A stretch of 64,000 bases of DNA from a virus (taxonomy: Duplodnaviria > Caudoviricetes): positions 10,406-74,405 of the IMG/VR virus record IMGVR_UViG_3300044991_002130; one strand, written 5' to 3'. A program made the position numbers and the translations under genes. Positions 8,840 through 29,545 of this stretch are shown here, piece after piece; position 1 is the stretch's first letter; every line of letters begins with the position of its first letter. A model generated the notes under the pieces. The model saw nothing but the letters and a program-made list of their open reading frames with translations. It did not search any database and had not been told where the DNA came from.

Positions 8840-8916
8840 ATTTGTACTAGGTTTGGTGTTCCAACCATTCCGAAGATATATAGCAAACACTAAATACGCA
8901 GTACAGCAAATTTTTT

Positions 8917-9002
8917 GGCTTATTATACCGCTAAGGACGCGGTTCGCACTGTAAATGCGAAGCCCTCGGGCTGGGTTGGTTCGATACCGACATAAGCCAC
9001 CA
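8917..9002 (+). tRNA. tRNA-Tyr(GTA)
   Basis: Loop CTGTAAA, long variable arm, ACCA. Confidence 0.85.
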
Positions 9003-9009
9003 TTTTTAT

Positions 9010-9085
9010 CCGCTTATAGCTCAATTGGCAGAGCACGCTCTTTATAGGGGCATGGTTGTGGGTTCAACTCCTACTGGGCGGACCA
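9010..9085 (+). tRNA. tRNA-Ile(TAT)
   Basis: Loop TTTATAG, ACCA. Confidence 0.8.
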
Positions 9086-9096
9086 ATTTATAATAC

Positions 9097-9184
9097 GGAA
9101 AGTTGGCAGAGTGGTCTAATGCAGGACTTTGCTAAAGTCCCGATCCGAAAGGGTCCATAGGTTCGAATCCTATATTTTCCGCCA
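9097..9184 (+). tRNA. tRNA-Ser(GCT)
   Basis: Loop TTGCTAA, long variable arm, GCCA. Confidence 0.9.
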
Positions 9185-9249
9185 AATTTAGATTCTTGCA
9201 AGACGGTGTTCCTTTGAATTGCAATTCAATCGAAGTGACCGCAGCTGAA

Positions 9250-9333
9250 GTCAGTGGTGAATGATATAATGGCATTATTTCTCCCATAAAGGAGAATATC
9301 TGGGTTCGACTCCCAGTTTACCGAAAAGCTGAC
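9250..9333 (+). ncRNA. tRNA-like body inside an extended stem, no CCA
   Basis: D loop, TCTCC-CATAAA-GGAGA arm with 6-nt loop, CTGGG-TTCGACT-CCCAG T arm, acceptor extended by GTCAG/CTGAC. Confidence 0.55.
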
Positions 9334-9350
9334 ATGAGGCAAAACTTTAC

Positions 9351-9425
9351 GCCGAATAAACATAAATGGTAATGTGCTAGTCTTGTAAACTAGATAAGCG
9401 GGTTCGATTCCCGCATTTGGCTCCA
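9351..9425 (+). tRNA. tRNA-Thr(TGT)
   Basis: Loop CTTGTAA, TCCA; A8. Confidence 0.85.
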
Positions 9426-9510
9426 ATTTGTAGGTCGCAATATTCTGAATTATAATTCAGCGAAGATATTCCAATTATTGCGTTAGTGGAATTCGCCTAT
9501 AACAATTTAT

Positions 9511-9586
9511 GCCGTGTGACATAGCTGGTTGTGATGACTCCTCTGCAAAAGGATGGAGATTGGTTCGATTCCAATACGCGGCTCCA
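9511..9586 (+). tRNA. tRNA-Cys(GCA), atypical D arm
   Basis: Loop CTGCAAA, U73, CCA. Confidence 0.8.
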
Positions 9587-9594
9587 ATTTATAT

Positions 9595-9668
9595 GCGGGA
9601 TTAGTTTAGTGGTAGAATGTGACATTGCCAATGTCGATACGGGAGTTCGATTCTCCCATCCCGCACCA
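9595..9668 (+). tRNA. tRNA-Gly(GCC)
   Basis: Loop TTGCCAA, ACCA. Confidence 0.9.
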
Positions 9669-9670
9669 CT

Positions 9671-9796
9671 TTGACAGGATGGAATGGGCGTCGTATAGTT
9701 GGTAAATCAACTTGCAGTCCAACGTGAACCAACCCAGCAGCAACGAAGCGTGAGAAAAGTTGAGTTCTCATGTGAAGCTAGTAGAAGTTCTGTCAA
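9671..9796 (+). ncRNA. Unknown structured RNA
   Basis: Terminal stem TTGACAGGA/TTCTGTCAA between tRNAs. Confidence 0.45.
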
Positions 9797-9805
9797 TAAT
9801 TTTAT

Positions 9806-9883
9806 GGCCATGTGACGTAACTGGATAAACGTGTTAGTTTTAGAAACTAAATTCTGTGGGTTCGAGTCCCACCTTGGCTACCA
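9806..9883 (+). tRNA. tRNA-Leu(TAG), short variable loop
   Basis: Loop TTTAGAA, ACCA; no class II arm. Confidence 0.85.
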
Positions 9884-9968
9884 TTTTAGGTCGAAACAAT
9901 GAGTTGCATAAATTCAATGAAACGGTTGGTTAATAACCAACAGCCACTTTTCTTGGCGCGACTTTTAA

Positions 9969-10092
9969 TTTTGATAGTGTATGTGTTTTCGTCTCTAAAA
10001 TCTTACGGCACATGGAAGACGTGTAACGGGTTCAAAGTCCGACCACTTTGCATTGAGCAGAGTGAGTAAGCCAACCATATACATTATCAAAA
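9969..10092 (+). ncRNA. Unknown structured RNA
   Basis: Long terminal stem TTTTGATAGTGTATGT/ATATACATTATCAAAA; internal CGGGTTCAAAGTCCG T-loop-like hairpin. Confidence 0.55.
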
Positions 10093-10099
10093 AATTTAT

Positions 10100-10175
10100 G
10101 GGAGTTTGGTGAAGGCGGTCCTCACGTCGCACTGAAGATGCGAAGAAGTTGGTTCAATTCCAACAGCTCCCACCA
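10100..10175 (+). tRNA. tRNA-Phe(GAA)
   Basis: Loop CTGAAGA, ACCA. Confidence 0.85.
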
Positions 10176-10181
10176 TTTTAT

Positions 10182-10255
10182 TGAGATATGTTGTAGTGGT
10201 AGCAACGGAGTCTTTGAAACTCTTAGTCTTGGTTCGATTCCAAGTATCTCAGCCA
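10182..10255 (+). tRNA. tRNA-Gln(TTG), copy 1
   Basis: Loop CTTTGAA, U1-A72, GCCA. Confidence 0.9.
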
Positions 10256-10398
10256 GTTTGAGAAACCTATACCAATAGGTGTATAAGCCGAACGGCCCGA
10301 GAGGGATGGACGTGAGCTATAGCATGGATGTGTAATCGAAAGAGTATCCACCAAGACTTGTTCTTGGCGCAAAAATCCATTGTGACAACACCTCAAAC
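10256..10398 (+). ncRNA. Unknown structured RNA
   Basis: Terminal stem GTTTGAG/CTCAAAC with several internal hairpins. Confidence 0.45.
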
Positions 10399-10404
10399 AT
10401 TTAT

Positions 10405-10480
10405 CGGAGTGTGGTGACAAAGGTTGTCGATTCGTTTTGGAAACGAAATTATGCAGGTTCGAGTCCTGTCACTCCGACCA
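10405..10480 (+). tRNA. tRNA-Pro(TGG), atypical D arm
   Basis: Loop TTTGGAA, C1-G72, ACCA. Confidence 0.8.
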
Positions 10481-10487
10481 CTTTTAT

Positions 10488-10561
10488 TGAGATATGTTGT
10501 AGTGGTAGCAACGGAGTCTTTGAAACTCTTAGTCTTGGTTCGATTCCAAGTATCTCAGCCA
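10488..10561 (+). tRNA. tRNA-Gln(TTG), copy 2 (identical)
   Basis: Exact duplicate of 10182-10255. Confidence 0.9.
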
Positions 10562-10568
10562 TTTTTAT

Positions 10569-10643
10569 TGCGATATAGTGTTAAGGTAGCACAGCCCGAC
10601 TGTTAATCGGGAAGTGATGGTTCAAGTCCATCTTTCGCAGCCA
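10569..10643 (+). tRNA. tRNA-Asn(GTT)
   Basis: Loop CTGTTAA, GCCA. Confidence 0.85.
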
Positions 10644-10808
10644 TTTTATTATACAACAACTGCGGAGATAGTAATTCCAAAAAAGTTGTTACTGTATGAG
10701 TAGAAGATATCGTGAATTAATTACTATGTCACGTGAAGCGAAAAATATAGGATAATATAAAGGTGAAGCCTCATCTTGAATGGGTTAAATTCCCAAAGGC
10801 ATTTTTAT

Positions 10809-10886
10809 TCTCATCGGGCTGGCATGGTGTTAAGCACGTGACTGTTAATCACGATAAGCGTGGATCGTTACCACGGGTGGGAGCCA
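10809..10886 (+). tRNA. tRNA-Asn(GTT), atypical (T loop ATCGTTA)
   Basis: Loop CTGTTAA, GCCA. Confidence 0.75.
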
Positions 10887-10888
10887 AT

Positions 10889-11009
10889 TTAATGTAGCTG
10901 AGAACGGATGCAAGCGGTATACCGAAACGCCGAAAGGTTGACCTTGGAAACAAGCGGTATGTGTCGATACAAAAGTATCATAACAGAGTGGAACTCACAC
11001 TCTCATTAA
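10889..11009 (+). ncRNA. Unknown structured RNA
   Basis: TTAATG/CATTAA closure with GNRA-capped hairpins. Confidence 0.35.
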
Positions 11010-11020
11010 AAATTTTATAT

Positions 11021-11099
11021 GGAACTAAAGCCACAGTGGACGGGCAGCGGTCTTTTAAACCGTTAATTCGTGTGGGTTCAACTCCCACTGGTTCCACCA
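11021..11099 (+). tRNA. tRNA-Lys(TTT), atypical (A8)
   Basis: Loop CTTTTAA, ACCA; same body style as 8286. Confidence 0.8.
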
Positions 11100-11159
11100 T
11101 TTTGTTAGCTTTTTTGTACATATGAGTTATATTTATAGAAATACCACCATTATTTACAT

Positions 11160-11585
11160 ATGAAAAAAAGCGAACTTAAAGATATTATAGCCGAATGCGT
11201 TACCGAAGTCATTCAAGAACAAGGTTTACCAGAAGGTTGGGGACAAGACATGTTGAAAGGTTTGAAGAAGACCTTCACGGGCGATGGTCCAGACAGTGGA
11301 GCAGCACATTATGATAGAAATGCAAAAATGCACAATAAACGCGTGGATTACAGTAAAGCATCTATCGGAGATAAGTCTAAGATGCGGGCCGGAGCAAGAA
11401 AAACGGTAGAGGCTTCGAAACAAGAATTTGAAACTAAGTTAAAAGAAATGCTGCGCAGTGCATTCGTAGAAGCCGAATCAGTCGGAATGAAGCGCGAAGA
11501 CGTAACAAAAGCATTTCGTTCCGCAATCACGAGTATTTTTAACAAATATAAAAGACTCGAAGAGATAGCAGAAGAACAACAATAA
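11160..11585 (+). CDS. Hypothetical protein with MKKSELK leader (putative packaged head protein)
   Basis: N-terminal motif shared with 18174 and 26102; TATTTAT motif upstream. Confidence 0.7.
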   Translation: MKKSELKDIIAECVTEVIQEQGLPEGWGQDMLKGLKKTFTGDGPDSGAAHYDRNAKMHNKRVDYSKASIGDKSKMRAGARKTVEASKQEFETKLKEMLRSAFVEAESVGMKREDVTKAFRSAITSIFNKYKRLEEIAEEQQ

Positions 11586-11737
11586 TTTTTAGGTGATGTG
11601 TGAGGTTTCACTGACTCACACTTAGTCGAGAAGCTCGATAACCTTTTGGGTGTGAGGGGCGACTATCGTGTCGCCGACATCTTTGGTCCCCACCAATTTG
11701 TCGCAATGGGGCAATACCTCACACATATAATTTATAT

Positions 11738-11820
11738 AGCAGAGACAAGCCAAGGGACGCTGAGTGCGCTCATAACGCATCCGAAAGGTATGATGGATTC
11801 GATTTCCATCTCTGCTACCA
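11738..11820 (+). tRNA. tRNA-CAT (Met or Ile2), atypical, with variable hairpin
   Basis: Loop CTCATAA, CCGAAAGG variable arm, ACCA. Confidence 0.7.
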
Positions 11821-11909
11821 ATTTCGTATTCGTGTTTCGGACCAAAAGAATATAGAGTGACATACGACTCTTTCAATTGGAAAAATCAGAGCACCCAATT
11901 TATTTTTAT

Positions 11910-11985
11910 CAGTGTGTGGTGCAAGAGGTTGGCGATTCCGCTTGGAACGGAAATTATGTAGGTTCGAGTCCTATCACACTGACCA
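11910..11985 (+). tRNA. tRNA-Pro(TGG), atypical D arm
   Basis: Loop CTTGGAA, ACCA; paralog of 10405. Confidence 0.8.
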
Positions 11986-12050
11986 ATTTTTAACATACAC
12001 AGTAGTCCTCTTGATTTATATCAATGTCAATAATGGCTGTGTGAAACTTT

Positions 12051-12127
12051 GGAGTGGGAGCTTATGAAGCACAAGCAATAGATTGTCAATCTATAGAAAG
12101 TCGGTGCAAATCCGATGCACTCCGCCA
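12051..12127 (+). tRNA. tRNA-Asp(GTC), atypical
   Basis: Loop TTGTCAA, T loop TGCAAAT, no GG in D loop, GCCA. Confidence 0.7.
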
Positions 12128-12161
12128 ATTTTACGATTTGAATATGGACGCATATTCATTC

Positions 12162-12240
12162 GTCGCGTCTGATTCAAGGTGACTGGCAGTCCTTGTGGCT
12201 GGGTTCTAGACTAAGTTGTTTCGACTACAACGGCGCGACA
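12162..12240 (+). ncRNA. tRNA-like RNA with 8-bp acceptor stem, no CCA
   Basis: GTCGCGTC/GGCGCGAC, T arm GTTGT-TTCGACT-ACAAC; anticodon unclear. Confidence 0.5.
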
Positions 12241-12254
12241 TATTTAAATTTTAT

Positions 12255-12330
12255 GGTGTTATAGTGTAAAGGTCGCACTGGCTGATTGTCAATCAGCAAG
12301 ACGGGGTTCGAGTTCCCCGTAACACCGCCA
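12255..12330 (+). tRNA. tRNA-Asp(GTC)
   Basis: Loop TTGTCAA, GCCA. Confidence 0.85.
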
Positions 12331-12371
12331 CTTTGAGTCGCAATATGGAAACATATATGCCGATTTTATAT

Positions 12372-12447
12372 GCGCACGTCGTCCAACTGGATAGGACATC
12401 AGATTACGAATCTGAGAATTAGGGTTCGAATCCCTACGAGCGCACCA
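12372..12447 (+). tRNA. tRNA-Arg(ACG)
   Basis: Loop TTACGAA, ACCA. Confidence 0.9.
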
Positions 12448-12453
12448 TTTTAT

Positions 12454-12530
12454 GGAGACGCTGGCAAAGTAGAGCCGACCTCGCTTCGAACGAGTTATAA
12501 CTATAGGTTAGAGTCCTATCGCCTCCACCA
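12454..12530 (+). tRNA. tRNA-Arg(TCG), atypical
   Basis: Loop CTTCGAA, T loop TTAGAGT, ACCA. Confidence 0.7.
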
Positions 12531-12533
12531 ATT

Positions 12534-12691
12534 TTTGAGCGGCAGCGTGGAAGGACATACAGCCTTGAGAAGTTCTATTACGCACAGTATAGTGTACATA
12601 AAGCTGTGCCTCTGAAACGAAGCGATGACTACCTAATAGATCGGGTCAGATTCAATGTCATCAATAGGTATCAATTCCTATCCGACTCAAA
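12534..12691 (+). ncRNA. RNA with a tRNA-elbow-like frame and about 100-nt insert
   Basis: TTGAG.CGG/CCG.CTCAA closure, D-like GCGTGGAAGGAC, T-like ATAGG-TATCAATT-CCTAT. Confidence 0.5.
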
Positions 12692-12695
12692 TTAA

Positions 12696-12903
12696 TTTTG
12701 AATAGCAGCTCGGAGTGTAGAAAAGTTTTTCCCTTTTCGGTACGAGCATGGGGTTAAACCATCAGCGGAAAAATAAGCAACGAAAAGCCTCTAAGTTCAT
12801 AACAATATGTTAAATGGGAAAATAATAACATGTTGGAATTTATGCGCAAACAGGAAACTCGCTATAGTGTAGATATATAAAGCAAAACTACATCTATTCA
12901 AAA
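12696..12903 (+). ncRNA. Unknown structured RNA (about 210 nt)
   Basis: TTTTGAATAG/CTATTCAAAA terminal stem. Confidence 0.5.
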
Positions 12904-12908
12904 ATTTT

Positions 12909-12999
12909 TGGATATGTTGCGGAACGTCTAGACAATTAACGCAAAGCTAGTCAAAGAGAATTAACATTCTTGATTGTAAGTTCAAATCTTACCTATCCA
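12909..12999 (+). pseudogene. Degenerate tRNA-like element
   Basis: TGGATA/TATCCA closure and T arm GTAAG-TTCAAAT-CTTAC only. Confidence 0.35.
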
Positions 13000-13201
13000 A
13001 ATTTTTTAATTTACAGAGAGTTAAGGGTACAGCCATTGGAATATCGCAGTGGGTTCATGTAGCGTAATAAGCACTCTTGACCAAACACTTTCTAATATTT
13101 GGACAGAAGTCTAGTTGTTTGTAAAACAGGAGTCGGTGTAATCATATTGATGTTTTTCAACAGGCAACCGTGCGCGGAATAATCGGGTGCTGTTCATTTT
13201 T

Positions 13202-13277
13202 GGCCCTATAGAATAATGGTTGAGTTCGCCTGCCTTTCAAGCAGGAGAGCCGGGATCGTGACCCGGTGGGGCTACCA
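13202..13277 (+). tRNA. tRNA-Glu(TTC)
   Basis: Loop CTTTCAA, T loop ATCGTGA, ACCA. Confidence 0.85.
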
Positions 13278-13278
13278 A

Positions 13279-13405
13279 TTTGTCATCATTGAGGGCAGAA
13301 ATATGAAATAGCAGTGGTGTAATGGTAGCACAGGGACAGCAAATCTTGCGATATGGTTCGATTCCATGCAGTGAAAAATAAGTCTGAGCGACCTGAAATG
13401 ACAAA
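13279..13405 (+). ncRNA. RNA carrying D/anticodon/T arms without an acceptor stem
   Basis: TTTGTCAT/ATGACAAA closure; GTGTAATGGTAGCAC D arm; TATGG-TTCGATT-CCATG T arm. Confidence 0.55.
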
Positions 13406-13407
13406 AA

Positions 13408-13680
13408 TTTTTGTTGAGGAGGTTGGTCTAGAGGCAGCAATCCTATAATGAGTAGAGTCCGTACTCCAAGCTAGTAAAAGTGCAGCGATGAATTCTCGAA
13501 TTCTGCATTTCCCATTACCAACTATAATGGTTCGCGTGGAGGCAATTCAGACGCGAACCGATAAGAACTACGGAATTGACCTTAGCTCGGTGCCGAAAAT
13601 GTAAGCGCAAATATAGTTGTTATATATTTGGCCGCGAAACGGTGTTAGCTCTTTTGGCGTAATAGCACACTCTTCAAAAA
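13408..13680 (+). ncRNA. 23S rRNA L11-binding (H43/H44) mimic split by about 200-nt insert
   Basis: AGGAGGTTGGTCTAGAGGCAGCAATCCTATAATGAGT ... GCGTAATAGCACACT matches 23S about 1054-1105. Confidence 0.75.
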
Positions 13681-13689
13681 TATTTAAAT

Positions 13690-13768
13690 GGCGATATCGT
13701 CTATGTTTGGAAAGGACAGGATATTCTCAATATTCAAAGGTCGGTTCGACTCCCGACTATCGCCACCA
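13690..13768 (+). tRNA. tRNA-Glu(CTC)
   Basis: Loop TTCTCAA, ACCA. Confidence 0.8.
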
Positions 13769-13770
13769 TT

Positions 13771-15129
13771 TTATGTTTTCCATTTACGAATTAAGTTTTT
13801 CAACTTGATTCTGTGCTCGCGGATTTTTTGCTTACTGCGCAATCTGATATAATTAGCAACTTCCTCCGCGCCACCAAAAGTTAACATTTCAACTATATCG
13901 TTAATATCTTTTGGAATAAATTTTTCTTGGGTCTGTGGGTCGGCGAACATGTATGTTTGATTTGAAGAATTTCGATATGCTTGATATTTTTTCATCGCAT
14001 TCCCTAACACACTTTCTAGATTGAAATCGGATAATCTCACCAAGTTTTCGTAACTAGAATCGTCCAATACACCGCGAACAATATTTGACATTGGTTTGCC
14101 GTAAGTTTTAATATTCACAACGTGTGTTATAGCGTTGGTGATTTGGTCGAGATAATCTCCGTCGTAACTTTTCAAGAACTTGGTCAAATCTTTAGAGAGG
14201 AATACACCATTGTCTCTTCCATGATGAAAGATGCACCACCACGCTAAGTTTTTTCCCAGCGCATCGTAATCTTCGGTTCCTAGATATTCTTCTAGGTCGT
14301 CCTCTATACGACCGTCGTCTAGGATGTTATAATGTTCTGCTATTAGCGTAGACAGTTTAGGAACAAACTCGTCGCCATGATCTTTTACCCACTCTTCGTT
14401 TTTCTTTTCTTCCACTTCTTGCTGTCTGTCTGAAATATTGCTTTCATCGTCATCAAGGTATTCCGTTAATTTTTCCATTGCTTCTTCCGGCAATATTTCT
14501 GATAAATATTCCCCCGGTCTAGACATGGTATGGTCCTGAGAATTATACAATGTCCAATCACGACTGTTCGCCCCGGACGGAGAGAGCAACGCCAATCGAG
14601 CCATTGGTTTTTCAGATTCTCGGTCATGTATAAGAATTACGGTGTTTTCAGAGTAGTAATCCTGCCAATAATCTTCGCTGCTTGAAATACACCAGTTGGT
14701 TTTTCCGGCTGCAAAATTTCCAACTGCATCTTGTGAGCGCGGACCGACAATTAAAAATCTGTCATCTTCGTAAATCAGTTCGGTGTCTGCGGCTAATTTT
14801 TCTCTGTTGCTAAGTTTCTTCGCGGCTTCGTCGGTGGCTCGGACAAACTCTTCATAAGTTTTGTACTTGTTGATGTCAATGCTTGATAGCTTGTTGAAGT
14901 GCACCTTAATTCTCTGTAACAAATCATTAGCGAACACTTTGTTTTCAATTTTGTCGGATACGGTGACGATCTTTCCAAGCCAGTCGAGATACTTCTTGTT
15001 GGCGGTAAAGTCGCCATCTATAAGTAAGTTCTGCATCCATAATGGGAGGTTTACGTATTTCTCTTGAAAGTCAGAAACTCGACTTTCCAGCAATAAATAT
15101 GGCAATAAAGATGATAATTTGATGTGCAT
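13771..15129 (-). CDS. Hypothetical protein with IKL..LL leader (putative head protein)
   Basis: 452 aa; MHIKLSSLL..LLE start; KTNWCISS motif. Confidence 0.75.
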   Translation of the reverse strand: MHIKLSSLLPYLLLESRVSDFQEKYVNLPLWMQNLLIDGDFTANKKYLDWLGKIVTVSDKIENKVFANDLLQRIKVHFNKLSSIDINKYKTYEEFVRATDEAAKKLSNREKLAADTELIYEDDRFLIVGPRSQDAVGNFAAGKTNWCISSSEDYWQDYYSENTVILIHDRESEKPMARLALLSPSGANSRDWTLYNSQDHTMSRPGEYLSEILPEEAMEKLTEYLDDDESNISDRQQEVEEKKNEEWVKDHGDEFVPKLSTLIAEHYNILDDGRIEDDLEEYLGTEDYDALGKNLAWWCIFHHGRDNGVFLSKDLTKFLKSYDGDYLDQITNAITHVVNIKTYGKPMSNIVRGVLDDSSYENLVRLSDFNLESVLGNAMKKYQAYRNSSNQTYMFADPQTQEKFIPKDINDIVEMLTFGGAEEVANYIRLRSKQKIREHRIKLKNLIRKWKT

Positions 15130-15268: not shown

Positions 15269-15272
15269 ATTT

Positions 15273-15348
15273 GAAGAAGTAGCTCAGAGAAAGAGCGCCG
15301 GTGTTTCAACGTCTGTGAGGTCGGTGGTTCAAGTCCACCCTTCTTCGA
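15273..15348 (+). pseudogene. tRNA-like gene with enlarged anticodon arm, no CCA
   Basis: GAAGAAG/CTTCTTC acceptor, D and T arms intact; 20-nt anticodon region containing TTTCAA. Confidence 0.55.
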
Positions 15349-15356
15349 TATTTTAT

Positions 15357-17550: not shown

Positions 17551-17592
17551 ATGTATAAATATAGGTTAGATGTTATAAAATGTAAAGATAAC

Positions 17593-17668: not shown

Positions 17669-17696
17669 TTTATAGTAAACAGTATGCGTGCTTATT

Positions 17697-18722: not shown

Positions 18723-18859
18723 ATTTCAATATAAAAAACCAGTATAGCCCAAAGATAATTCAGCGGTCTGGGGTGATGCATCACTTGTCTGTTTGGGATA
18801 TTGAAACTAATTTAATGTGATGAGCCCTAGTTTTTGTATTTGGTATATATTTATATTAC

Positions 18860-19249: not shown

Positions 19250-19650
19250 TTTAGCAGTTACGACGTTCTGAAACAAACGATCCAGCCTACTGTTCCGCTG
19301 TAACCCGAGCAGTTGCATTTTTGGTAAACGTGAAAAGAAATAGTAAAGAATAGAACACGAGTCATCGTACTTGTGTCACACTAGGCTATCCATCTAGCTC
19401 CTTAATAGGAATAAATTTACAACCATCTTCTTTCAGTATAACAAGTGCTCAAAACTTGTTCGTTCATATGTTTTCGTAAAAGCATATCAACAGAAGCAGT
19501 GGATTGGTTCAATCGTTAGTTCTTTTGCGTAAAAAGACAATATTTGTCACTCAATGCCTCTTAACAATGCACAATTTTAAGTGAGTTTTACGGCAGTTAC
19601 AGGGGTAGCCCCTTGGGTGGGAGGCGCACACCAAATCACGCCTATTCTAT
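19250..19650 (+). ncRNA. Large (about 400 nt) ORF-free structured region
   Basis: Long-range pairs CTGTAAC/GTTACAG, AACGAT/ATCGTT and many hairpins. Confidence 0.45.
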
Positions 19651-19852: not shown

Positions 19853-19972
19853 TTTGTAAGTTTTATAAGATGTAGCCAATGCTTCCAAGCGAGGATCATG
19901 TGCTGTAAGTTCTTACCTGTCGCAATGGTGCAAAATAGAAACATCGAGCATTAGAGTTGGTAGCTTACAAAA
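19853..19972 (+). ncRNA. Unknown structured RNA
   Basis: TTTGTAAGTT/AGCTTACAAA closure. Confidence 0.45.
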
Positions 19973-21565: not shown

Positions 21566-21719
21566 TTTTCTATAGTGACAAAAAGGGCGGCAGACTCTGA
21601 ATCTGTTGTTTGAAGCGTTGGGGTTGCTCCCAACTCAGTAAACGGCACTGAGGGTGGTTTAACCTAACCACGAAAGATGCTAAAGTGAGATAGCTGTGGG
21701 ACAGCTTGACTATAGAAAA
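21566..21719 (+). ncRNA. Multi-hairpin RNA with an anticodon-like loop
   Basis: TTTTCTATAGT/ACTATAGAAAA closure; GGCGGCAGA-CTCTGAA-TCTGTTGTT hairpin. Confidence 0.55.
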
Positions 21720-22574: not shown

Positions 22575-22640
22575 TTTTATGGCGTCCACTTGAGGATGAA
22601 CCATAGAGTGCGGGTAGATGAATCGCACACGCCAATTTTC

Positions 22641-24077: not shown

Positions 24078-26012
24078 ATGAATAATAATAAAAATACAAG
24101 AAATAACTCGGTCTGGAACAAGCTTATTGTTTTGTTCTGCCTGTTTGCTACTGTTGCGTTTGGACTGCCGTCCATCGAAACAAGTAATTTACAAGCTACA
24201 CCGGGCGTAACGCTATCACAAGCCGGTACATCGCTAGTGGTCACATCACCAAATAAATCCGTTCTGACGTGGCAGAATTTTGGTAGTGGCACCGATACCA
24301 TCGCCAGCGGAGATAGTATAAATTATACGTTACCATCCTCCAATTCTTCGGTTTTAAATATAGTAACTGGCGGAAACAATACTACTATCAATGGAAGCAT
24401 TTCTTCGAATGGAAATGTATACATTCTGAATCCGAACGGAATAATAATTGGAAGTAATGCTCGTATTGACACCAATGCAATTTATGCAAGTACTGCTGAT
24501 GGTACATCAATTGGCTCTAACTATTTTCTAGCAAATGGAAAATTGCCAAGTCAAGATGGATTGGTTTTGGGCGGAAGCAGCATAACTGTTAAACCCGGCG
24601 CAACAATCACCGCCGTATCTAACAATATTTATTTGGCGTCCAATGGATTGGATTTGCAAGCGGGTTCAATCAATGGAAACTTGACAGTAAATGCAACTGG
24701 GACTGTGGGTCTAAGCACACTCGGAACAACCTTTATCGCGGGAGATTTGACCGTAAATAATTCGTATGGAACAACAACACTTGCCACGCCCGGAAATACC
24801 TTGGCCGTGAGTGGAGTCGCAACCGTCAATACCGTTGCTGGAACTGTGATTAATACGGCAGGAAGTTCTTTGAATGCCCGCTCCGTCGTTATAAATGCTG
24901 GCATTGGCGAAATTTCGGTGGCAAAAGTGGTATCTTCTACTGTAACTGCCACCGGTAAAAATGTTTCCATTACATATGGACAAAATGCGCCGGTCACATT
25001 CGTCGGTTCTGCGGCAAATAACATTTCCGTAAATGCTCCGGGAGCACTGACACTCTCTGATGTATCTAATACCGGAACAGGCACAGCAACTTTTGTTTCG
25101 GGAGATAGATTATCTCTTGGAAAGATTCATCTCAATGGAACCGGCGGCGCATCCTTTACTGGAACTTCCGTGGTCGATACAATTGGTAATGCATTTGTAT
25201 ATGGCGGAACCTCTTTCACTGCAAACTCCGGTGGAGATATTTCTATCACAAAGACCGGAAATAGCTTTGGACCAGTGAGTGTTACCACAACCGGTAATGC
25301 CACCATCAACGAATCCGCGACACTTAATTTGAATGTAATCAATGTTGGAAATGTTCTCGCGTTGTCTAGCCTCGGAGAAAACATTTTTCAAACTTCGACT
25401 ACTGGCACAATCACAAATGCGTCGCCCGTTGTTTCTGCTGTTGGCAGCATTCAATTGCTTGCTCCAAGCAATACATTTAACACAATTGCTGTAAATGGAA
25501 CTGATGTATCGTTGGTCACCGCCAATGCATTAACACTTGATAATATTTCGGCCAACGGTCAATTGTCGATTACAAGCGGCGGAGCAATTTCCCAAAAAGT
25601 TGGAGCGACTGTTAAATCTTTCTCGGATACAACTTTCAATACGACGAATAACAACATTACCTTGGCTAACACCGGCAATAACTTCGGTGGATTGACTTTG
25701 AATGCTGGCAATGGAAACATTTCCGTTGTTGAAAGTTCTACTATAAGACTTCTTGGTGTCGGTGGAAGTACCGTGGTATTGAAGAGTGGTGGAGATATCA
25801 TCAATTCCGGGGCAGGTGCAATTACCACTCGGACATTGAATCTTGAAGCTGGTGTGGGGATTGTCCTGACAAATGCGGCCACAATTTCTACTTCGTTGCT
25901 GTTCAAGGCCGTTGGTACTGTCGATTTGAGTGCTCTAAGTTTGGCAACAAATCTAAATAGCGTAGTTCCCGTGAATAATGGGGCTGGTACTTATACGCCC
26001 CCAACTCCTTAA
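24078..26012 (+). CDS. Secreted filamentous haemagglutinin-like (TpsA N-terminal domain) beta-helix protein
   Basis: Signal peptide; WQNF...VLN.V.G...I.G...SNG.VY..NPNGI TPS motif; G/T/N-rich repeats. Confidence 0.85.
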   Translation: MNNNKNTRNNSVWNKLIVLFCLFATVAFGLPSIETSNLQATPGVTLSQAGTSLVVTSPNKSVLTWQNFGSGTDTIASGDSINYTLPSSNSSVLNIVTGGNNTTINGSISSNGNVYILNPNGIIIGSNARIDTNAIYASTADGTSIGSNYFLANGKLPSQDGLVLGGSSITVKPGATITAVSNNIYLASNGLDLQAGSINGNLTVNATGTVGLSTLGTTFIAGDLTVNNSYGTTTLATPGNTLAVSGVATVNTVAGTVINTAGSSLNARSVVINAGIGEISVAKVVSSTVTATGKNVSITYGQNAPVTFVGSAANNISVNAPGALTLSDVSNTGTGTATFVSGDRLSLGKIHLNGTGGASFTGTSVVDTIGNAFVYGGTSFTANSGGDISITKTGNSFGPVSVTTTGNATINESATLNLNVINVGNVLALSSLGENIFQTSTTGTITNASPVVSAVGSIQLLAPSNTFNTIAVNGTDVSLVTANALTLDNISANGQLSITSGGAISQKVGATVKSFSDTTFNTTNNNITLANTGNNFGGLTLNAGNGNISVVESSTIRLLGVGGSTVVLKSGGDIINSGAGAITTRTLNLEAGVGIVLTNAATISTSLLFKAVGTVDLSALSLATNLNSVVPVNNGAGTYTPPTP

Positions 26013-26608: not shown

Positions 26609-26763
26609 TTTGTTCGTTCAGTTCAATGTACCGTGAAAAGCAATGGCCACAATGAGTCAACCGTGCTGAGTAATTTAGCGAGACGCAGGGTAAGGGAAAC
26701 ACTCAAGATAACTTACTATCAGGTATTACGACAACCCCTAAGTTAAAAGGTGGAATGAACAAA
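26609..26763 (+). ncRNA. Unknown structured RNA
   Basis: TTTGTTCGTTC/GAATGAACAAA closure. Confidence 0.5.
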
Positions 26764-26766
26764 AAC

Positions 26767-27023
26767 TTTGAGAATAAAAAAGGCACTTGGCCCGATGATA
26801 ATTGTGACGCTTGCAACCTCGCTAGAGGGAAATTGGTAGGCAAGCTGCGTCAGTCCGAAAGGATTGGTCGTCTAACTACGAGGTAATGCTCATCTTAGAT
26901 GTAGATGTACAAGCACATCGTATAATAGCAGATTTCAGCACAGCCAAGAGGTAGAATGTCTGGCGGTTGATAGACACCTACTGAAAGATCATCATCCTAG
27001 GTTAGCAACTAGGTATTCTCGAA
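26767..27023 (+). ncRNA. Unknown structured RNA (about 255 nt)
   Basis: TTTGAGAATA/TATTCTCGAA closure; GNRA hairpins. Confidence 0.5.
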
Positions 27024-27027
27024 AACT

Positions 27028-27396
27028 TTCGAAGTAAGCGACCTTGCGCTGGTGACTATAGCTGAGTTAAGATGCCATCCATAATACGGTAATCAACCCG
27101 TTGAGACGAATGGATGTAAAATTCTCAAAAATTAAAATTCTATAATTACTAGAGGAAGTTCGCCCCTGCATAACACGGCGAGGCAGAGCAAACGCAGAGC
27201 AGAACACGTTGTTGGGTCTCGGGTCCAACCGAGATAGTTGACAATTGAGGACGCTCGCTCTTAGCGGCTCGTTATCGACCTCACGCAAGCAGCAACCTCA
27301 AAACGTCAAAGTGTGGGTGTTACACGTTGTAAAGGCAGGTAGAGGGCTTAGACAAATGCAAGGATAAAACAGAAGGGCGGCTACGGCTGCTTCGAA
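27028..27396 (+). ncRNA. rnpB: RNase P RNA
   Basis: P1 TTCGAAGT/GCTTCGAA; CR-I GAGGAAGTTCGCCC pairs with CR-V AACAGAAGGGCGGCTA (P4); CR-IV CTTAGACAAATG. Confidence 0.85.
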
Positions 27397-27411
27397 AAAC
27401 TTTAGTAAAAT

Positions 27412-27497
27412 GCAAGGGTAGGTAAGTGGCTAAAACAGGAAGTTTCATAAGCTTTCGCCGTAAGGCTTCGCGGGTTCGAATCCCGCCTCTTGCACCA
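27412..27497 (+). tRNA. tRNA-CAT (Met or Ile2) with long variable arm
   Basis: Loop TTCATAA, GCC-GTAA-GGC variable arm, ACCA. Confidence 0.75.
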
Positions 27498-27506
27498 ACT
27501 TTAGAT

Positions 27507-27581
27507 GCCGACAAAACATAAATGGTGATGTGCGAACTTGGTAAGTTCGAAAAATGGGTCCGATTCCCATTGTTGGCTCCA
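27507..27581 (+). tRNA. tRNA-Thr(GGT)
   Basis: Loop TTGGTAA, TCCA; A8. Confidence 0.85.
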
Positions 27582-27587
27582 ACTTAT

Positions 27588-27664
27588 GCCGATGAAAGAC
27601 ACTTGATTCTGTATGTCAGGTATTCGTCGTAACGTACCCAGTTCGATTCTGGGCATCGGCTCCA
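27588..27664 (+). tRNA. Non-canonical tRNA-like RNA (Thr-like acceptor, anticodon unresolved)
   Basis: Perfect GCCGATG/CATCGGC acceptor, T arm and TCCA; no standard D/anticodon arms. Confidence 0.55.
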
Positions 27665-27668
27665 ATTT

Positions 27669-27848
27669 ATGAAAATTGAAACAATCGAAGATATAGCAAA
27701 AGTTATAGTAAACCTTCCATCCGATTTAAGAGAGTACTTGATAAGTAATGTTACTCCGTCTACTTTTGTGTCATGTCTTCTTTTATTGGGGGCAGGAGGA
27801 AATATAAAAGATTTCGCCTCCGCACTCAAAGAACATATGGTTATATGA
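27669..27848 (+). CDS. Small hypothetical protein (59 aa; not in ORF track)
   Basis: MKIETIEDIAK...HMVI*, ATGA overlap with next gene. Confidence 0.5.
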   Translation: MKIETIEDIAKVIVNLPSDLREYLISNVTPSTFVSCLLLLGAGGNIKDFASALKEHMVI

Positions 27849-28276
27849 AGAAGATACTAATAATGGGACTACCCGGCGCAGGAAAAACAACACTGGCCAA
27901 AGAATTGGCCAAGATGTTGAATGCAGTTCATTTCAACGCCGATGAAATTCGCCGAGAGGTGAACAAAGACCTGAAATTCGAGTTAGTTGACCGTATAGAA
28001 CACGCTAGGCGCATGGGAGTGCTATGTGACATTGTCGTAAGAAGCGGACATTATGCAATTGCAGATTTTGTTTGTCCAACCAGAGAAACGCGAAAGGCAT
28101 TCGGCGCGGACAAATCATTTATAATATGCATGGATAGAATTGAAGCTGGTAGGTACGAGGATACAAATAAATTGTTTGAATATCCAGCAATGTGCAATGT
28201 TCGAGTTGGAAATACAGGAACAGCCGAAGAATGGGTGAATAAAATTTATCATAAATTAGCAAGTGCAGGTCAGTGA
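27845..28276 (+). CDS. Adenylylsulfate kinase-like P-loop kinase
   Basis: MGLPGAGKTT, NADEIR, DFVCPT, FEYP. Confidence 0.8.
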   Translation: MKKILIMGLPGAGKTTLAKELAKMLNAVHFNADEIRREVNKDLKFELVDRIEHARRMGVLCDIVVRSGHYAIADFVCPTRETRKAFGADKSFIICMDRIEAGRYEDTNKLFEYPAMCNVRVGNTGTAEEWVNKIYHKLASAGQ

Positions 28277-28329
28277 TATATATAGTATTTTTATAAGAAC
28301 CAGTCTGTTCTGTTATATTTATTATAACT

Positions 28330-28989
28330 ATGAGCAAACACACCACCATCAGTATAGAAGATTTGGAAAAAACTATTTTGTTTTTAGAAACTCCTCGCCC
28401 AATATTGAAACGGGTGATAAAATTGTGTGAAGTCAGAGAATATCCAACCGGCGTATTCATCATAACGGAAAATGAATGCAGTCAGTTTATGTTTATACTA
28501 ATTTCAGGAACGGTTGACTTGATCAAGGGAAATAAATCAAAGAAGATAGCAACTCTTGGCGCTGGAAGTATAATAGGAGAAGGAACTTTGATTTCTGGTG
28601 CGCCTAGAAGTGCAACAATAGTAACTGCTTCACATGTAAAAGTTGCAATAATCAATAAAGATTCATTTGATAAAATGTTGACTATGCATCCTTCAATTCC
28701 TATTGCATTGATGAAACTACATTCAAGTAGATGCAAGTCTGTTGTGGCAAATGTTAATATATTCAAGTCTTATGGGTTTATGGTTATTGCAGCGTTGTTT
28801 GGTTTGATGACATTGAAAAATTCACATAGTGTTATAGATATAGAGTCAATCAGTCCTGTGTTGAAGCAGTTGGCTGGATTGATACCAGACCAATATATGT
28901 CAGTTTGTGGACCAGCCGCTTTGCTTGCATTCGTAAAATCTCAGAAGATGGATATTAATAGTATACAAGCAAAATTAGAGAAAATTTGA
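28330..28989 (+). CDS. Cyclic nucleotide-binding domain protein with C-terminal TM segments
   Basis: G.V...L.AG...GE......PRSAT cNMP signature. Confidence 0.85.
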   Translation: MSKHTTISIEDLEKTILFLETPRPILKRVIKLCEVREYPTGVFIITENECSQFMFILISGTVDLIKGNKSKKIATLGAGSIIGEGTLISGAPRSATIVTASHVKVAIINKDSFDKMLTMHPSIPIALMKLHSSRCKSVVANVNIFKSYGFMVIAALFGLMTLKNSHSVIDIESISPVLKQLAGLIPDQYMSVCGPAALLAFVKSQKMDINSIQAKLEKI

Positions 28990-29000
28990 TGAAATTGTAG

Positions 29001-29045
29001 TTGACGAACAACAGAATGTGTGTATAGTCATTGTTGTTCTTTTGA
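29001..29045 (+). promoter_or_regulatory. Sigma70 promoter plus boxA-like element
   Basis: TTGACG-N16-TATAGT then TGTTCTTTTGA. Confidence 0.55.
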
Positions 29046-29048
29046 TAC

Positions 29049-29139
29049 GGCTGTGTGGCGGAATTGGCTATACGCACTTCGCTTAGAACGAAGCACCTAT
29101 AAAAAAGGTATATGGGTTCGACTCCCTTCGCAGCCACCA
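29049..29139 (+). tRNA. tRNA-Leu(TAG), canonical class II
   Basis: Loop CTTAGAA, variable arm, ACCA. Confidence 0.88.
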
Positions 29140-29190
29140 AATAAAAATAGTAATCGCGATGATCAAAGATGAATTTTGCTACAAATATAC

Positions 29191-29236
29191 TTGACAGTAT
29201 CAAATAATAATCTATAGTCATTCTTGTTCTTTTAAA
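29191..29236 (+). promoter_or_regulatory. Sigma70 promoter plus boxA-like element
   Basis: TTGACA-N16-TATAGT then TGTTCTTTTAAA. Confidence 0.55.
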
Positions 29237-29239
29237 TAC

Positions 29240-29467
29240 TTTTTTCTGGTCGTAAATACTTTGGGTCTCGTAAACCCATTTACTGGTTGGTATACAATGA
29301 CAAACACGTAGTAAATGTTGATTGAAATTCCTCTGCTTCCGAAGCGCGGGCCTGATATTATAGTTAGGTTAGAGCACTTGAGACATTTACTTGATTGTAT
29401 ATCGAAGGGGAGCATAGCTGCTGTGCATACCGAGAGATTACCAACTCAACAAGCAGTCAGAAAAAAA
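29240..29467 (+). ncRNA. Unknown structured RNA (about 230 nt)
   Basis: TTTTTTCTGG/TCAGAAAAAA closure; TATACAAT/ATTGTATA and AGTAAATGT/ACATTTACT nested stems. Confidence 0.55.
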
Positions 29468-29469
29468 AT

Positions 29470-29545
29470 AAGTGCTGACATTGGGGATGACTCACCTGCT
29501 GATGAACCAATGGCGCGGAGACGCAGGTCACTACCGCCAGCACTT
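29470..29545 (+). ncRNA. Small pseudoknotted RNA
   Basis: AAGTGCTG/CAGCACTT closure, CATTGG/CCAATG stem, loop ACCTGC pairs with GCAGGT. Confidence 0.5.

What the first reader, a model, noticed from the sequence alone, without database searches (positions are those of the whole stretch)
8841..29545. About 20 unannotated structured RNAs interleaved with tRNAs, each closed by a terminal helix
Seen: many inter-tRNA spacers of 70-270 nt have complementary ends flanked by A/T runs like the tRNAs, including 8843-8905, 9428-9502, 9671-9796, 9887-9963, 9969-10092, 10256-10398, 10889-11009, 12696-12903, 18724-18807, 19853-19972, 21566-21719, 26609-26763, 26767-27023 and 29240-29467. RNase P RNA and the 23S mimic are packaged the same way, which suggests these are discrete genes cut from the same transcript. 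Established: large phage and tRNA-linked ncRNAs exist (GOLLD, ROOL), but I cannot assign any of these by eye.
Basis: seen in the sequence. Interest (0 to 1): 0.75.

Follow-up and report, generated by a model that had tools for sequence, protein, structure and literature searches.

The report
Helix-closed RNA modules between phage tRNAs
An uncultured lake-water phage carries about thirty small folded RNA modules wedged between its tRNA genes, a much larger set of the "stable RNAs of unknown function" long known from the tRNA regions of phages T5 and T4.

Summary
Spacers between the + strand tRNAs are bounded by the same T-rich linkers as the tRNAs, and their two ends pair more than chance allows. 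For 13 whole tRNA-to-tRNA gaps, own ends gave -8.75 kcal/mol against -6.08 for mismatched ends (permutation p=1e-4). For 42 gap families across the clade, 0 of 20,000 permutations matched the observed value.

The helices act in RNA on the + strand: G-U 14 against A-C 3. Ten of 19 units with relatives show compensatory pair changes, including U16 with 7 and U32 with 14. Four units show them in the terminal helix itself.

Units come and go between related phages as whole cassettes cut at the linkers. None matches an Rfam family.

The layout matches T5 RNAI/III/IV/1/2/3 (6 of 6 fold with paired ends) and T4 RNAC. I therefore file this as a large new instance of a known, still unexplained kind.

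Expression and processing are inferred, not shown. Folding-energy z-scores are weak, and about 11 of my 33 units lack a clear closing helix.

The parts
8844..8909 (+). U1, 66 nt, between tRNA-Gly and tRNA-Tyr
   Evidence: 6-bp end helix plus inner pairs. 92% homologue in L002 with no informative change.
9191..9350 (+). U2, 160-nt cassette holding a CCA-less tRNA-like core (ARAGORN 'tRNA-???' 9255-9324)
   Evidence: A contig variant skips exactly 9191-9350, and the cassette is absent in G001. T-arm-like hairpin at 9300. No clear closing helix; z=-0.67.
9430..9504 (+). U3, 75 nt, three-way junction shape
   Evidence: End helix -10.4 kcal/mol. 97-99% conserved in L002 and L179.
9673..9798 (+). 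U4, 126 nt
   Evidence: 9-10 bp end helix with one G-U. No relative found. Promoter-like site at 9671-9699.
9888..9962 (+). U5, 75 nt, cloverleaf-like, no CCA
   Evidence: Identical in L002 and 84-87% in the L171/L172/L178 group. 2 compensatory pairs and 0 of 38 cells broken.
9973..10089 (+). U6, 117 nt
   Evidence: 13-bp end helix, 17 bp counting the flanking U-run paired with the A-run, -20 kcal/mol. z=-4.2 and -3.15. 98-100% identical in 6 related loci, some overlapping or near-identical. Covered by an RNA-library contig.
10260..10398 (+). U7, 139 nt
   Evidence: 7-bp end helix. No relative found.
10654..10800 (+). U8, 147 nt
   Evidence: 97-99% conserved in 5 loci. No clear closing helix.
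10894..11011 (+). U9, 118 nt
   Evidence: Short TTAATG/CATTAA end helix. The L002 homologue has a replaced centre.
11592..11730 (+). U10, 139 nt, after the 141-aa ORF
   Evidence: 11-bp end helix; MFE -56.3 kcal/mol; z=-4.83.
11820..11901 (+). U11 cassette, about 80 nt
   Evidence: A contig variant skips exactly 11820-11901. Absent in L002 and L054. 99% in L176.
11994..12047 (+). U12, 54 nt
   Evidence: 8-bp end helix. 7 distinct sequences, 1 compensatory pair, 6 of 105 cells broken.
12134..12241 (+). U13, 108 nt, T-arm-like hairpin next to the 3' strand, no CCA
   Evidence: T-arm-like hairpin at 12215. Identical in L054 and L177.
12537..12691 (+). U15, 155 nt
   Evidence: End helix -13.2 kcal/mol. 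5 sequences, 1 of 215 cells broken, no compensatory change. Covered by an RNA-library contig 12533-12714.
12700..12903 (+). U16, 204 nt
   Evidence: 7 distinct sequences, 53 pairs, 7 compensatory, 99.7% of cells paired; slid controls give at most 1.
12910..13000 (+). U17, 91 nt, tRNA-like (acceptor-like helix plus T-arm), no CCA
   Evidence: T-arm-like hairpin at 12976. End helix -10.3 kcal/mol. 99% in L179.
13013..13197 (+). U18, 185 nt
   Evidence: 94% homologues; 1 compensatory pair.
13282..13406 (+). U19, 125 nt: tRNA-like core inside a long closing helix
   Evidence: 10 compensatory pairs of 31 against L002. Two are in the closing helix and three in a T-arm whose loop is invariant. Weak Rfam tRNA hit at 13308-13376 (17.8 bits).
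13412..13689 (+). U20, 278 nt, the most widely conserved unit
   Evidence: 7 distinct sequences at 90% identity or more; 76 pairs, 2 compensatory. Found in 10 IMG/VR contigs by an exact 21-mer. Covered by RNA-library contigs.
18727..18805 (+). U21, 79 nt
   Evidence: The closing helix changes from CAATAT/ATATTG to CAATGC/GCATTG in L002, which is two compensatory pairs.
19545..19650 (+). U24, 106 nt
   Evidence: 70% homologue in L002 with 5 compensatory pairs. No closing helix.
19856..19972 (+). U25, 117 nt
   Evidence: 10-bp end helix. Absent between His and Trp in L054, and replaced by another helix-closed unit in L002.
21570..21717 (+). U26, 148 nt
   Evidence: 11-12 bp end helix; z=-3.1 and -2.5. 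94% homologue in G008 with 0 of 82 cells broken.
22581..22634 (+). U27, 54 nt
   Evidence: 6-bp G+C-rich end helix, -9.7 kcal/mol.
26612..26763 (+). U29, 152 nt
   Evidence: 11-bp end helix with 1 compensatory pair against G008; 4 compensatory of 24 pairs. Absent in L054.
26771..27022 (+). U30, 252 nt
   Evidence: End helix -12.6 kcal/mol. 97% homologue with 0 of 140 cells broken.
27030..27400 (+). U31, RNase P RNA-like cassette, packaged like the others
   Evidence: Full-length match to Rfam RNaseP_arch at 27030-27394: 25.9 bits (gathering 84), E=1.1e-5 in a 451-nt search. 12-bp end helix.
29246..29460 (+). U32, 215 nt
   Evidence: 3 sequences at 76-79% identity; 68 pairs, 14 compensatory, one of them in the closing helix.
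29469..29547 (+). U33, 79 nt
   Evidence: 8-bp end helix, -12.8 kcal/mol. Homologues at 100% (L054, L182) and 87% (L181).

Best explanation
The tRNA array of this uncultured phage also carries about 30 non-tRNA RNA modules. Each module is a separate cassette on the tRNA strand, bounded by the same U-rich linker that separates neighbouring tRNAs. About two thirds are closed by pairing of their own 5' and 3' ends.

Most likely the array is transcribed as long precursors. An endonuclease that prefers A/U-rich single strands (RNase E type) would cut the linkers. RNase P would trim tRNA 5' ends; it could be the host's enzyme, or one built on the phage's own RNase P-like RNA. The freed modules would persist because their paired ends shield them from exonucleases.

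This is the same arrangement as the stable RNAs of the T5 and T4 tRNA regions.

The modules are a mixed set. A minority are tRNA-like, with an acceptor-like helix and a T-arm but no CCA. These probably engage tRNA-binding factors, for example as decoys for tRNA-targeting host nucleases. Most are unrelated folds of unknown function.

Shown here: module boundaries, end pairing beyond chance, strand-specific RNA pairing, conserved structure with compensatory changes, and cassette turnover. Inferred: transcription, the cutting enzymes, stability and function.
For: - End pairing beyond chance with tRNA-defined boundaries. It recurs in the relative L002 (15 gaps, 0 of 5000 permutations) and in two other arrays fetched by tRNA pattern that share no non-tRNA units with the window: L051 (p=0.0008) and L127 (p=0.007).
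- In closing helices scored symmetrically, G-U outnumbers A-C 14 to 3 (p=0.006). That fits RNA on the + strand.
- Using structures predicted from the window alone, changes on both sides of a pair keep pairing 18 times and break it 4 times. Slid controls give 28 and 39 (Fisher p=0.001).
- Consensus folds of 19 units: 678 pairs, 37 compensatory, 17 of 2345 cells broken; slid controls give 0-6 compensatory pairs.
- Best single cases: U16, U32, U19.
- Compensatory changes lie inside the closing helix of U19, U21, U29 and U32.
- Cassette behaviour: units are present or absent between the same tRNAs in relatives, always at the linkers. Contig variants skip exactly 9191-9350 and 11820-11901, and one joins U20 directly to U12.
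- No + strand terminator-like site lies in 8840-13770, and promoter-like sites are not enriched (63 against 56.6 +/- 7.5).
- T5 record: 8 annotated stable RNAs of unknown function among its tRNAs. 6 of 6 folded have paired ends. T4 RNAC folds with an end helix plus a T-arm.
- T-arm-like hairpins occur in 6 of 42 gap families against 0.38 expected.
Against: - No direct proof of transcription, ends or stability. The RNA-labelled libraries are contigs and may hold DNA.
- Folding-energy z-scores barely differ from coding controls: mean -1.23 against -0.71, p=0.035, with 5 of 32 at or below -2 in both sets.
- One-sided changes in window-only structures keep pairing no more often than slid controls: 29 of 80 against 251 of 614.
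- About 11 of 33 units lack a clear closing helix.
- 9 of 19 units with relatives are too conserved to test, and 14 of 33 have no informative relative (none found, or only identical or partial copies).
- Several alignments hold only 2-3 sequences, and RNAalifold favours covarying pairs.
- G directly after the T-run, expected for an RNase P site, is not enriched: 15 of 37 against a 42% background.
- Three other arrays show no excess end pairing: L062, L132 and L163.
Confidence: 0.7

Rival explanations
1. The modules are mostly structured spacers or decayed tRNA copies with no function of their own. Their end helices only keep each spacer folded on itself, so that neighbouring tRNAs fold and are processed properly. 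After cutting, the spacers are degraded.
For: - Weak folding-energy z-scores.
- Rapid gain and loss of cassettes between close relatives.
- Some units carry tRNA remnants such as T-arms.
- About 11 of 33 lack a closing helix.
- No antisense target of 15 nt or more elsewhere in the contig, apart from the units' own hairpins.
Against: - Internal helices, not only the closing one, keep pairing through compensatory changes: U16 has 7, U32 has 14, U19 has 10.
- U20 and U6 stay 90-100% identical across lineages whose neighbouring units differ or are replaced.
- In T5 and T4, RNAs with this layout are annotated as stable RNAs.
Confidence: 0.15
2. The units are DNA-level mobile elements (MITE-like) with terminal inverted repeats that insert into the A/T-rich linkers. 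The end complementarity would be a transposition signal, not an RNA helix.
For: - Cassette presence or absence at identical sites.
- Inverted ends flanked by similar A/T-rich linkers.
- Nuclease-like ORFs sit in relatives' arrays. This I read by eye only and did not test.
Against: - G-U 14 against A-C 3 in the end helices shows strand-specific RNA pairing.
- The families share no common end sequence; mismatched ends pair worse than own ends.
- No unit recurs elsewhere in the 74-kb contig.
- Internal covariation is present.
Confidence: 0.05
3. The units are working but odd tRNAs, for example tRNAs with insertions or introns, that tRNA finders miss.
For: - A subset has an acceptor-like helix plus a T-arm.
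- U5 is cloverleaf-like.
- Two CCA-ending tRNA-shaped genes missed by ARAGORN exist at 27588-27664 and 29554-29639.
Against: - Only 6 of 42 gap families have a T-arm-like hairpin.
- In the window's spacers Rfam's tRNA model gives only the 17.8-bit hit inside U19.
- The units lack the encoded CCA that 43 of 45 tRNAs here carry.
- Sizes reach 278 nt.
Confidence: 0.08

Closest known systems
Phage T5 stable RNAs of the tRNA region (RNAI, RNAIII, RNAIV, RNA1, RNA2, RNA2H, RNA3, RNAX; annotated in NC_005859)
   Same: - They lie among the tRNA genes on the tRNA strand, often abutting a tRNA.
- They are a mix of tRNA-like and non-tRNA-like RNAs of 73-719 nt with unknown function.
- 6 of 6 that I folded pair their 5' and 3' ends, with 5-12 bp.
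   Different: - No sequence similarity.
- About 30 units per genome here against 8 in T5.
- T5 has annotated promoters inside its array, whereas here promoter-like sites are not enriched.
- The T5 RNAs were detected as RNA according to the record's annotation; these have not been.
Phage T4 RNAC and RNAD (species 1 and 2 RNAs)
   Same: - They sit next to tRNA-Arg in the tRNA cluster, separated by linkers of a few bases.
- RNAC folds with an end helix and a T-arm next to its 3' strand, like U13, U17 and several units in relatives.
- Their roles are still called unknown (passages read in PMC3014915 and PMC9697503).
   Different: Two RNAs against about 30. No sequence similarity. Most units here have no T-arm.
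GOLLD and ROOL RNAs
   Same: Large structured RNAs of phages and prophages, often near tRNA islands, with unknown function (passages read in PMC12286853).
   Different: No Rfam match at gathering score or at E<=1. The units here are 54-371 nt and numerous, not one RNA of 500-800 nt.
Bacterial Y RNAs (YrlA), which are tRNA-like modules on a long stem
   Same: U19 has a tRNA-like core with a conserved T-loop carried on a long closing helix. The comparison with YrlA architecture rests on recall and on a search listing of PMC4201824 only.
   Different: No Rfam match of any kind. No Ro60-type protein among the 30 ORFs I scanned, though not all ORFs were scanned.
Small RNAs cut from bacterial tRNA operon spacers (such as 3'ETS-leuZ)
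   Same: RNA released from a tRNA precursor by the tRNA-processing enzymes. This is recalled, and also named in an earlier scan note seen.
   Different: Those are short, mostly unstructured sponges. These are folded modules with closing helices and covariation.

Membership tests
T5/T4-type stable RNAs of phage tRNA regions | Lies inside a phage tRNA gene cluster, on the tRNA strand, next to tRNAs | tested here: met
   All units lie between + strand tRNAs and are separated from them by linkers of 3-10 nt. T5 and T4 have the same layout.
T5/T4-type stable RNAs of phage tRNA regions | Not a canonical tRNA and not a protein gene | tested here: met
   No ARAGORN or Rfam tRNA call at threshold, except a tRNA-like core in U2 and a weak one in U19. 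Substitutions follow RNA pairing. The ORF 9899-10069 crosses the U5/U6 border, and that border is not kept in G001.
T5/T4-type stable RNAs of phage tRNA regions | 5' and 3' ends paired in a closing helix | tested here: met
   About 22 of 33 units, and beyond chance. T5: 6 of 6 folded. T4 RNAC yes; RNAD only 2 pairs near its ends.
T5/T4-type stable RNAs of phage tRNA regions | Accumulates as a discrete stable RNA during infection | not testable with these tools
   Only contigs of RNA-labelled metagenome libraries cover U6, U12, U15 and U20. This is not proof.
T5/T4-type stable RNAs of phage tRNA regions | Sequence homology to the T5 or T4 RNAs | tested here: not met
   blastn of 33 units against the T4 and T5 regions gave one 18-nt hit at E=0.009, outside rnaC and rnaD. 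The kind is defined by layout, not by homology.
GOLLD / ROOL | Match to the Rfam covariance model | tested here: not met
   No hit at gathering score in the window, nor at E<=1 in 7500-31000.
tRNA | Cloverleaf reaching the Rfam tRNA gathering score, with an encoded CCA as in the other tRNAs of this phage | tested here: not met
   The units give no tRNA hit at E<=1, apart from the ARAGORN tRNA-like core in U2. U19's core scores 17.8 bits against a gathering score of 29. The units end in A-rich tails, not CCA.
MITE-like DNA element | Terminal inverted repeats that act at DNA level, with many dispersed copies | tested here: not met
   G-U 14 against A-C 3. No second copies in the contig.
RNase P RNA (for U31 only) | Match to an Rfam RNase P model at gathering score, with the conserved core | tested here: inconclusive
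   Full-length alignment to RNaseP_arch at 25.9 bits against 84. The conserved GAGGAA..UC and ACAGAAGG stretches are aligned at high posterior probability.

The most novel reading that the evidence does not exclude
The tRNA array is an exchangeable RNA cassette island. It would be a library of dozens of independently folding phage RNAs: at least 42 spacer families in this clade, including CCA-less tRNA mimics and the phage's own RNase P-like RNA. All would be released by the tRNA-processing machinery. Together with the neighbouring RNA ligases, RlaP and tmRNA, they would form an RNA-based toolkit against host tRNA-targeting defences. The mimics would act as decoys or sponges, and the phage RNase P RNA would secure processing.
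Probability: 0.2. Interest if true: 0.8.

Novelty: new member of a known kind. Interest (0 to 1): 0.45.

Why it matters
The stable RNAs of the T4 and T5 tRNA regions have had no known function for decades. Only a handful of examples exist, with little comparative data.

This clade offers about 30 such modules per genome and at least 42 spacer families, several with clear covariation-supported folds. It also shows that they evolve as swappable cassettes. That gives a far richer data set for defining families, building covariance models and looking for shared motifs or partners.

The phage is uncultured, so its direct experimental value is limited. The RNase P-like cassette and the CCA-less tRNA mimics are the parts most worth following.

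Tried and rejected
- blastn of 8200-13800 against GenBank phages found only tRNA-sized matches.
- The metagenome-contig scan with the 452-aa ORF gave 10 loci, and 0 of 10 had tRNAs.
- The search for related loci with the 644-aa ORF found nothing. With the 141-aa ORF it found only two 35-residue matches.
- With the 520-aa ORF it returned 27 loci. Only L003 (the same contig as L002) and L005 had tRNAs, and L005 is too distant to use.
- The first tRNA-plus-linker pattern was too strict, with 1 window match.
- blastn of the units against the other phage loci held at that point (169 loci, 1.6 Mb in all, relatives included) found nothing outside the relatives.
- Rfam at E<=1 or E<=5 gave no family for any unit except U31 and a weak tRNA hit in U19.
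- An RNase P-type G directly after the T-run is not enriched, so I dropped that argument.
- Folding-energy z-scores do not discriminate units from coding DNA.
- There are no antisense targets within the contig.
- Promoter-like sites are not enriched.
- Coverage by RNA-labelled library contigs, and parts without cover, are not used as evidence of expression or silence.
- Arrays L062, L132 and L163 showed no excess end pairing.
- Literature searches listed no paper describing dozens of structured RNAs inside one phage tRNA array, or a phage-encoded RNase P RNA. I saw titles and abstract openings only. Subscription journals and supplementary files were not searched.
- One search call failed on a too-short term and was corrected.

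Full report
WHAT THE WINDOW IS

The window is 64 kb of a single 74.4-kb virus contig. ARAGORN finds 44 tRNA genes, all on the + strand, between 8286 and 30002. Rfam adds tRNAs at 12051-12124 and 32576-32652, and a tmRNA at 37993-38384.

Of the 45 tRNAs that I tabulated, 43 end in an encoded CCA. Of those 43, 39 are followed within 3 nt by a TTT run. Where two tRNAs abut, the whole linker is 6-8 nt of the type (A/T)TTT(T)AT.

Genes around the array include:
- two RNA ligases (6166-7212 and 40465-41580);
- an RlaP-type nucleotidyltransferase (33222-33977, - strand);
- an ADP-ribosylglycohydrolase (2626-3534);
- an ART-PolyVal protein (15436-16998, - strand).

16 lake-water DNA runs hold at least 94% of the sampled words of 8763-13768.

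CHECKING THE OBSERVATION

In 10 of 14, at most 5% of 200 dinucleotide shuffles reach the observed number of end pairs.

Those borders were picked by eye, so I repeated the test with borders set only by ARAGORN.
- For 13 whole tRNA-to-tRNA gaps, the duplex energy of the first 25 nt against the last 25 nt averaged -8.75 kcal/mol. Each 5' end paired with another gap's 3' end gave -6.08 (n=156; Mann-Whitney p=0.0017; permutation p=1e-4). This control keeps the shared U-run/A-run pairing, so the excess is specific to each unit.
- Over the window and 11 related loci, 73 distinct gaps of 50-300 nt collapse into 42 families. Own ends gave -9.22 against -6.14, and 0 of 20,000 permutations reached that. 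24 of 42 families are at or below -9 kcal/mol, against 15% of mismatched pairs.

My own delineation gives 33 candidate units (U1-U33). About 22 have a clear closing helix.

RNA OR DNA, AND ON WHICH STRAND

I scored end helices symmetrically, with G:T and A:C mismatches penalised alike. The 25 best helices then hold 200 Watson-Crick pairs, 14 G-U pairs and 3 A-C pairs (binomial p=0.006). A DNA-level inverted repeat would show no such bias. The helices are therefore selected in RNA made from the tRNA strand.

RELATIVES AND CASSETTE BEHAVIOUR

GenBank phages gave only tRNA matches. IMG/VR gave relatives by three routes:
- the 452-aa ORF (L001, L002);
- a tRNA-plus-linker pattern (L054);
- an exact 21-mer of U20 (L170-L172 and L175-L179).

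I fetched further stretches of those contigs.

The arrays are mosaics. The same tRNAs are separated in one genome by a bare linker and in another by one or two non-tRNA units, and the units always start and stop at the linkers. Examples:
- U19 is absent between tRNA-Glu and U20 in G001.
- U29 is absent between tRNA-Ile and U30 in L054.
- U25 is absent in L054 and is replaced by a different helix-closed unit in L002.

Contigs of other runs confirm the borders. One skips exactly 9191-9350 (U2). One skips 11820-11901 (U11). One joins the end of U20 to the start of U12.

CONSERVED STRUCTURE

I first used structures predicted from the window sequence alone, which is not circular.
- Changes on both sides of a predicted pair keep pairing 18 times and break it 4 times. 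Partners slid by 1-3 nt give 28 and 39 (Fisher p=0.001).
- One-sided changes are no better than the control: 29 kept and 51 broken, against 251 and 363. This is partly because single-sequence folds contain wrong pairs.

Consensus folds of the 19 units with non-identical relatives give 678 pairs. Of these, 37 have compensatory changes, and 17 of 2345 cells are broken. Slid controls give 0-6 compensatory pairs. Ten units carry at least one compensatory pair: U5, U12, U16, U18, U19, U20, U21, U24, U28 and U32.

Best cases:
- U16: 7 distinct sequences, 53 pairs, 7 compensatory, 99.7% of cells paired; slid controls give at most 1.
- U32: 3 sequences at 76-79% identity, 68 pairs, 14 compensatory.
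- U19: 31 pairs, 10 compensatory against L002.
- U29, aligned later with G008: 4 compensatory of 24 pairs.

The closing helix itself covaries in four units: U19 (2 pairs), U21 (2 pairs), U29 (1) and U32 (1).

Nine units are 92-100% conserved and therefore uninformative. 14 of the 33 have no informative relative.

Folding-energy z-scores are weak evidence. Units average -1.23 against -0.71 for coding controls (p=0.035), and 5 of 32 are at or below -2 in both sets. U6 (z=-4.2; -3.15) and U10 (-4.8) stand out.

WHAT THE UNITS ARE

None reaches any Rfam family, with two partial exceptions.
- U31 (27030-27394) aligns over the full length of the archaeal RNase P model at 25.9 bits, against a gathering score of 84. 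E is 1.1e-5 in a 451-nt search, and the conserved core stretches are aligned at high posterior probability. It is packaged like the other units: a U-run linker, a 12-bp closing helix and an A-run.
- U19 holds a weak tRNA-like core (17.8 bits). Its T-arm keeps an invariant T-loop through three compensatory stem changes.

T-arm-like hairpins occur in 6 of 42 gap families, against 0.38 expected. Four of the six lie 18-23 nt from the 3' end of the gap, as in a tRNA. So a minority of units are CCA-less tRNA look-alikes, and most are unrelated folds.

ORFs do not explain the units. For example, the ORF 9899-10069 crosses the U5/U6 border, and that border is not kept in G001.

HOW IT MOST LIKELY WORKS

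Within 8840-13770 there is no + strand terminator-like site. Promoter-like sites are not enriched: 63 against 56.6 +/- 7.5. This fits long precursors.

The linker directly after CCA, or after the units' A-rich 4-5 nt tail (51% A), is U-rich and single-stranded. That is the kind of site cut by RNase E-type enzymes in polycistronic tRNA precursors. This last point is recalled knowledge and was not tested here.

In many units the upstream U-run pairs with the downstream A-run, for example in U6, U16, U25 and U26. One cut per linker would then leave a nearly blunt, closed RNA that resists exonucleases.

An RNase P-type G directly after the T-run is not enriched: 15 of 37, against a background of 42%. 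I therefore make no claim that RNase P cuts the units.

Transcription itself is not shown. Short contigs from a freshwater and a marine RNA-labelled library cover U6+tRNA-Phe, U15, U20 and U12, but such libraries can hold DNA.

COMPARISON WITH WHAT IS KNOWN

The T5 record annotates 8 'stable RNAs with unknown functions' among its tRNAs, three of them marked tRNA-like. All 6 that I folded pair their 5' and 3' ends.

T4 RNAC and RNAD lie next to tRNA-Arg. RNAC folds with an end helix and a T-arm next to its 3' strand. Their roles are still called unknown (passages read in PMC3014915 and PMC9697503).

GOLLD and ROOL also sit near tRNA islands (passages read in PMC12286853), but they do not match here.

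The units share no sequence with the T4 or T5 RNAs.

Two earlier notes of this scan, on other genomes, reached the same comparison. I checked the T5 and T4 claims myself. The end-pairing excess also recurs in two other phage arrays that share no non-tRNA units with the window, L051 and L127, but not in L062, L132 or L163.

VERDICT

The finding is real, and it is best read as a large new instance of a known but unexplained kind.

What is new:
- the scale, with about 30 units per genome and at least 42 spacer families in the clade;
- the clear covariation;
- the cassette-like turnover;
- an RNase P-like RNA packaged as one of the cassettes.

Function remains unknown. Supplementary files of the papers were not seen and might list further such RNAs.

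Noticed in passing
window 27030-27400 (+): An RNase P RNA-like gene sits inside the tRNA array. It aligns over the full length of the Rfam RNaseP_arch model with the conserved core, but scores only 25.9 bits against a gathering score of 84. It is absent at the same place in L054. One literature search listed no paper on phage-encoded RNase P RNA.
   Followed up: partly
window 27588-27664 and 29554-29639 (+): Two tRNA-shaped genes with a T-arm and an encoded CCA that ARAGORN missed. The second gives a weak Rfam tmRNA-type hit (E=0.0011) and has an A/U-only anticodon-loop region.
   Followed up: partly
window 15272-15348 (+): A tRNA with anticodon UCA, which would read UGA. ARAGORN calls it SeC and Rfam's tRNA model scores it 44 bits. 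It lacks the encoded CCA that nearly all other tRNAs here have. A look-alike sits at the matching place in L002.
   Followed up: no
window 32724-32740 (+): A T-arm-like hairpin just downstream of the tRNA at 32576-32652, possibly another tRNA-like unit outside the reported range.
   Followed up: no
window 6166-7212, 33222-33977 (-), 40465-41580, 37993-38384: RNA-repair and ribosome-rescue genes flank the array: two RNA ligases, an RlaP-type nucleotidyltransferase and a tmRNA.
   Followed up: partly
window 2626-3534 and 15436-16998 (-): An ADP-ribosylglycohydrolase and an ART-PolyVal ADP-ribosyltransferase-domain protein. The latter sits inside the array on the opposite strand.
   Followed up: no
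window 24078-26012 (+): A 644-aa ORF with a TPS (two-partner secretion) domain and DUF5649 repeats lies inside the tRNA array. No relative was found in IMG/VR by pattern search.
   Followed up: partly
window 9671-9699 (+): A near-consensus sigma-70-type promoter-like site (TTGACA, 17 nt, TATAGT; 11 of 12) lies at the 5' end of U4. It may be chance.
   Followed up: no
L054 (reverse complement) 2618-3329; L002 (reverse complement) 17335-17684; L169 (reverse complement) 5202-5721: ORF-bearing insertions between tRNAs in relatives' arrays look by eye like homing-endonuclease genes, as segB does in T4 and the heg genes do in T5. I did not scan them against Pfam.
   Followed up: no
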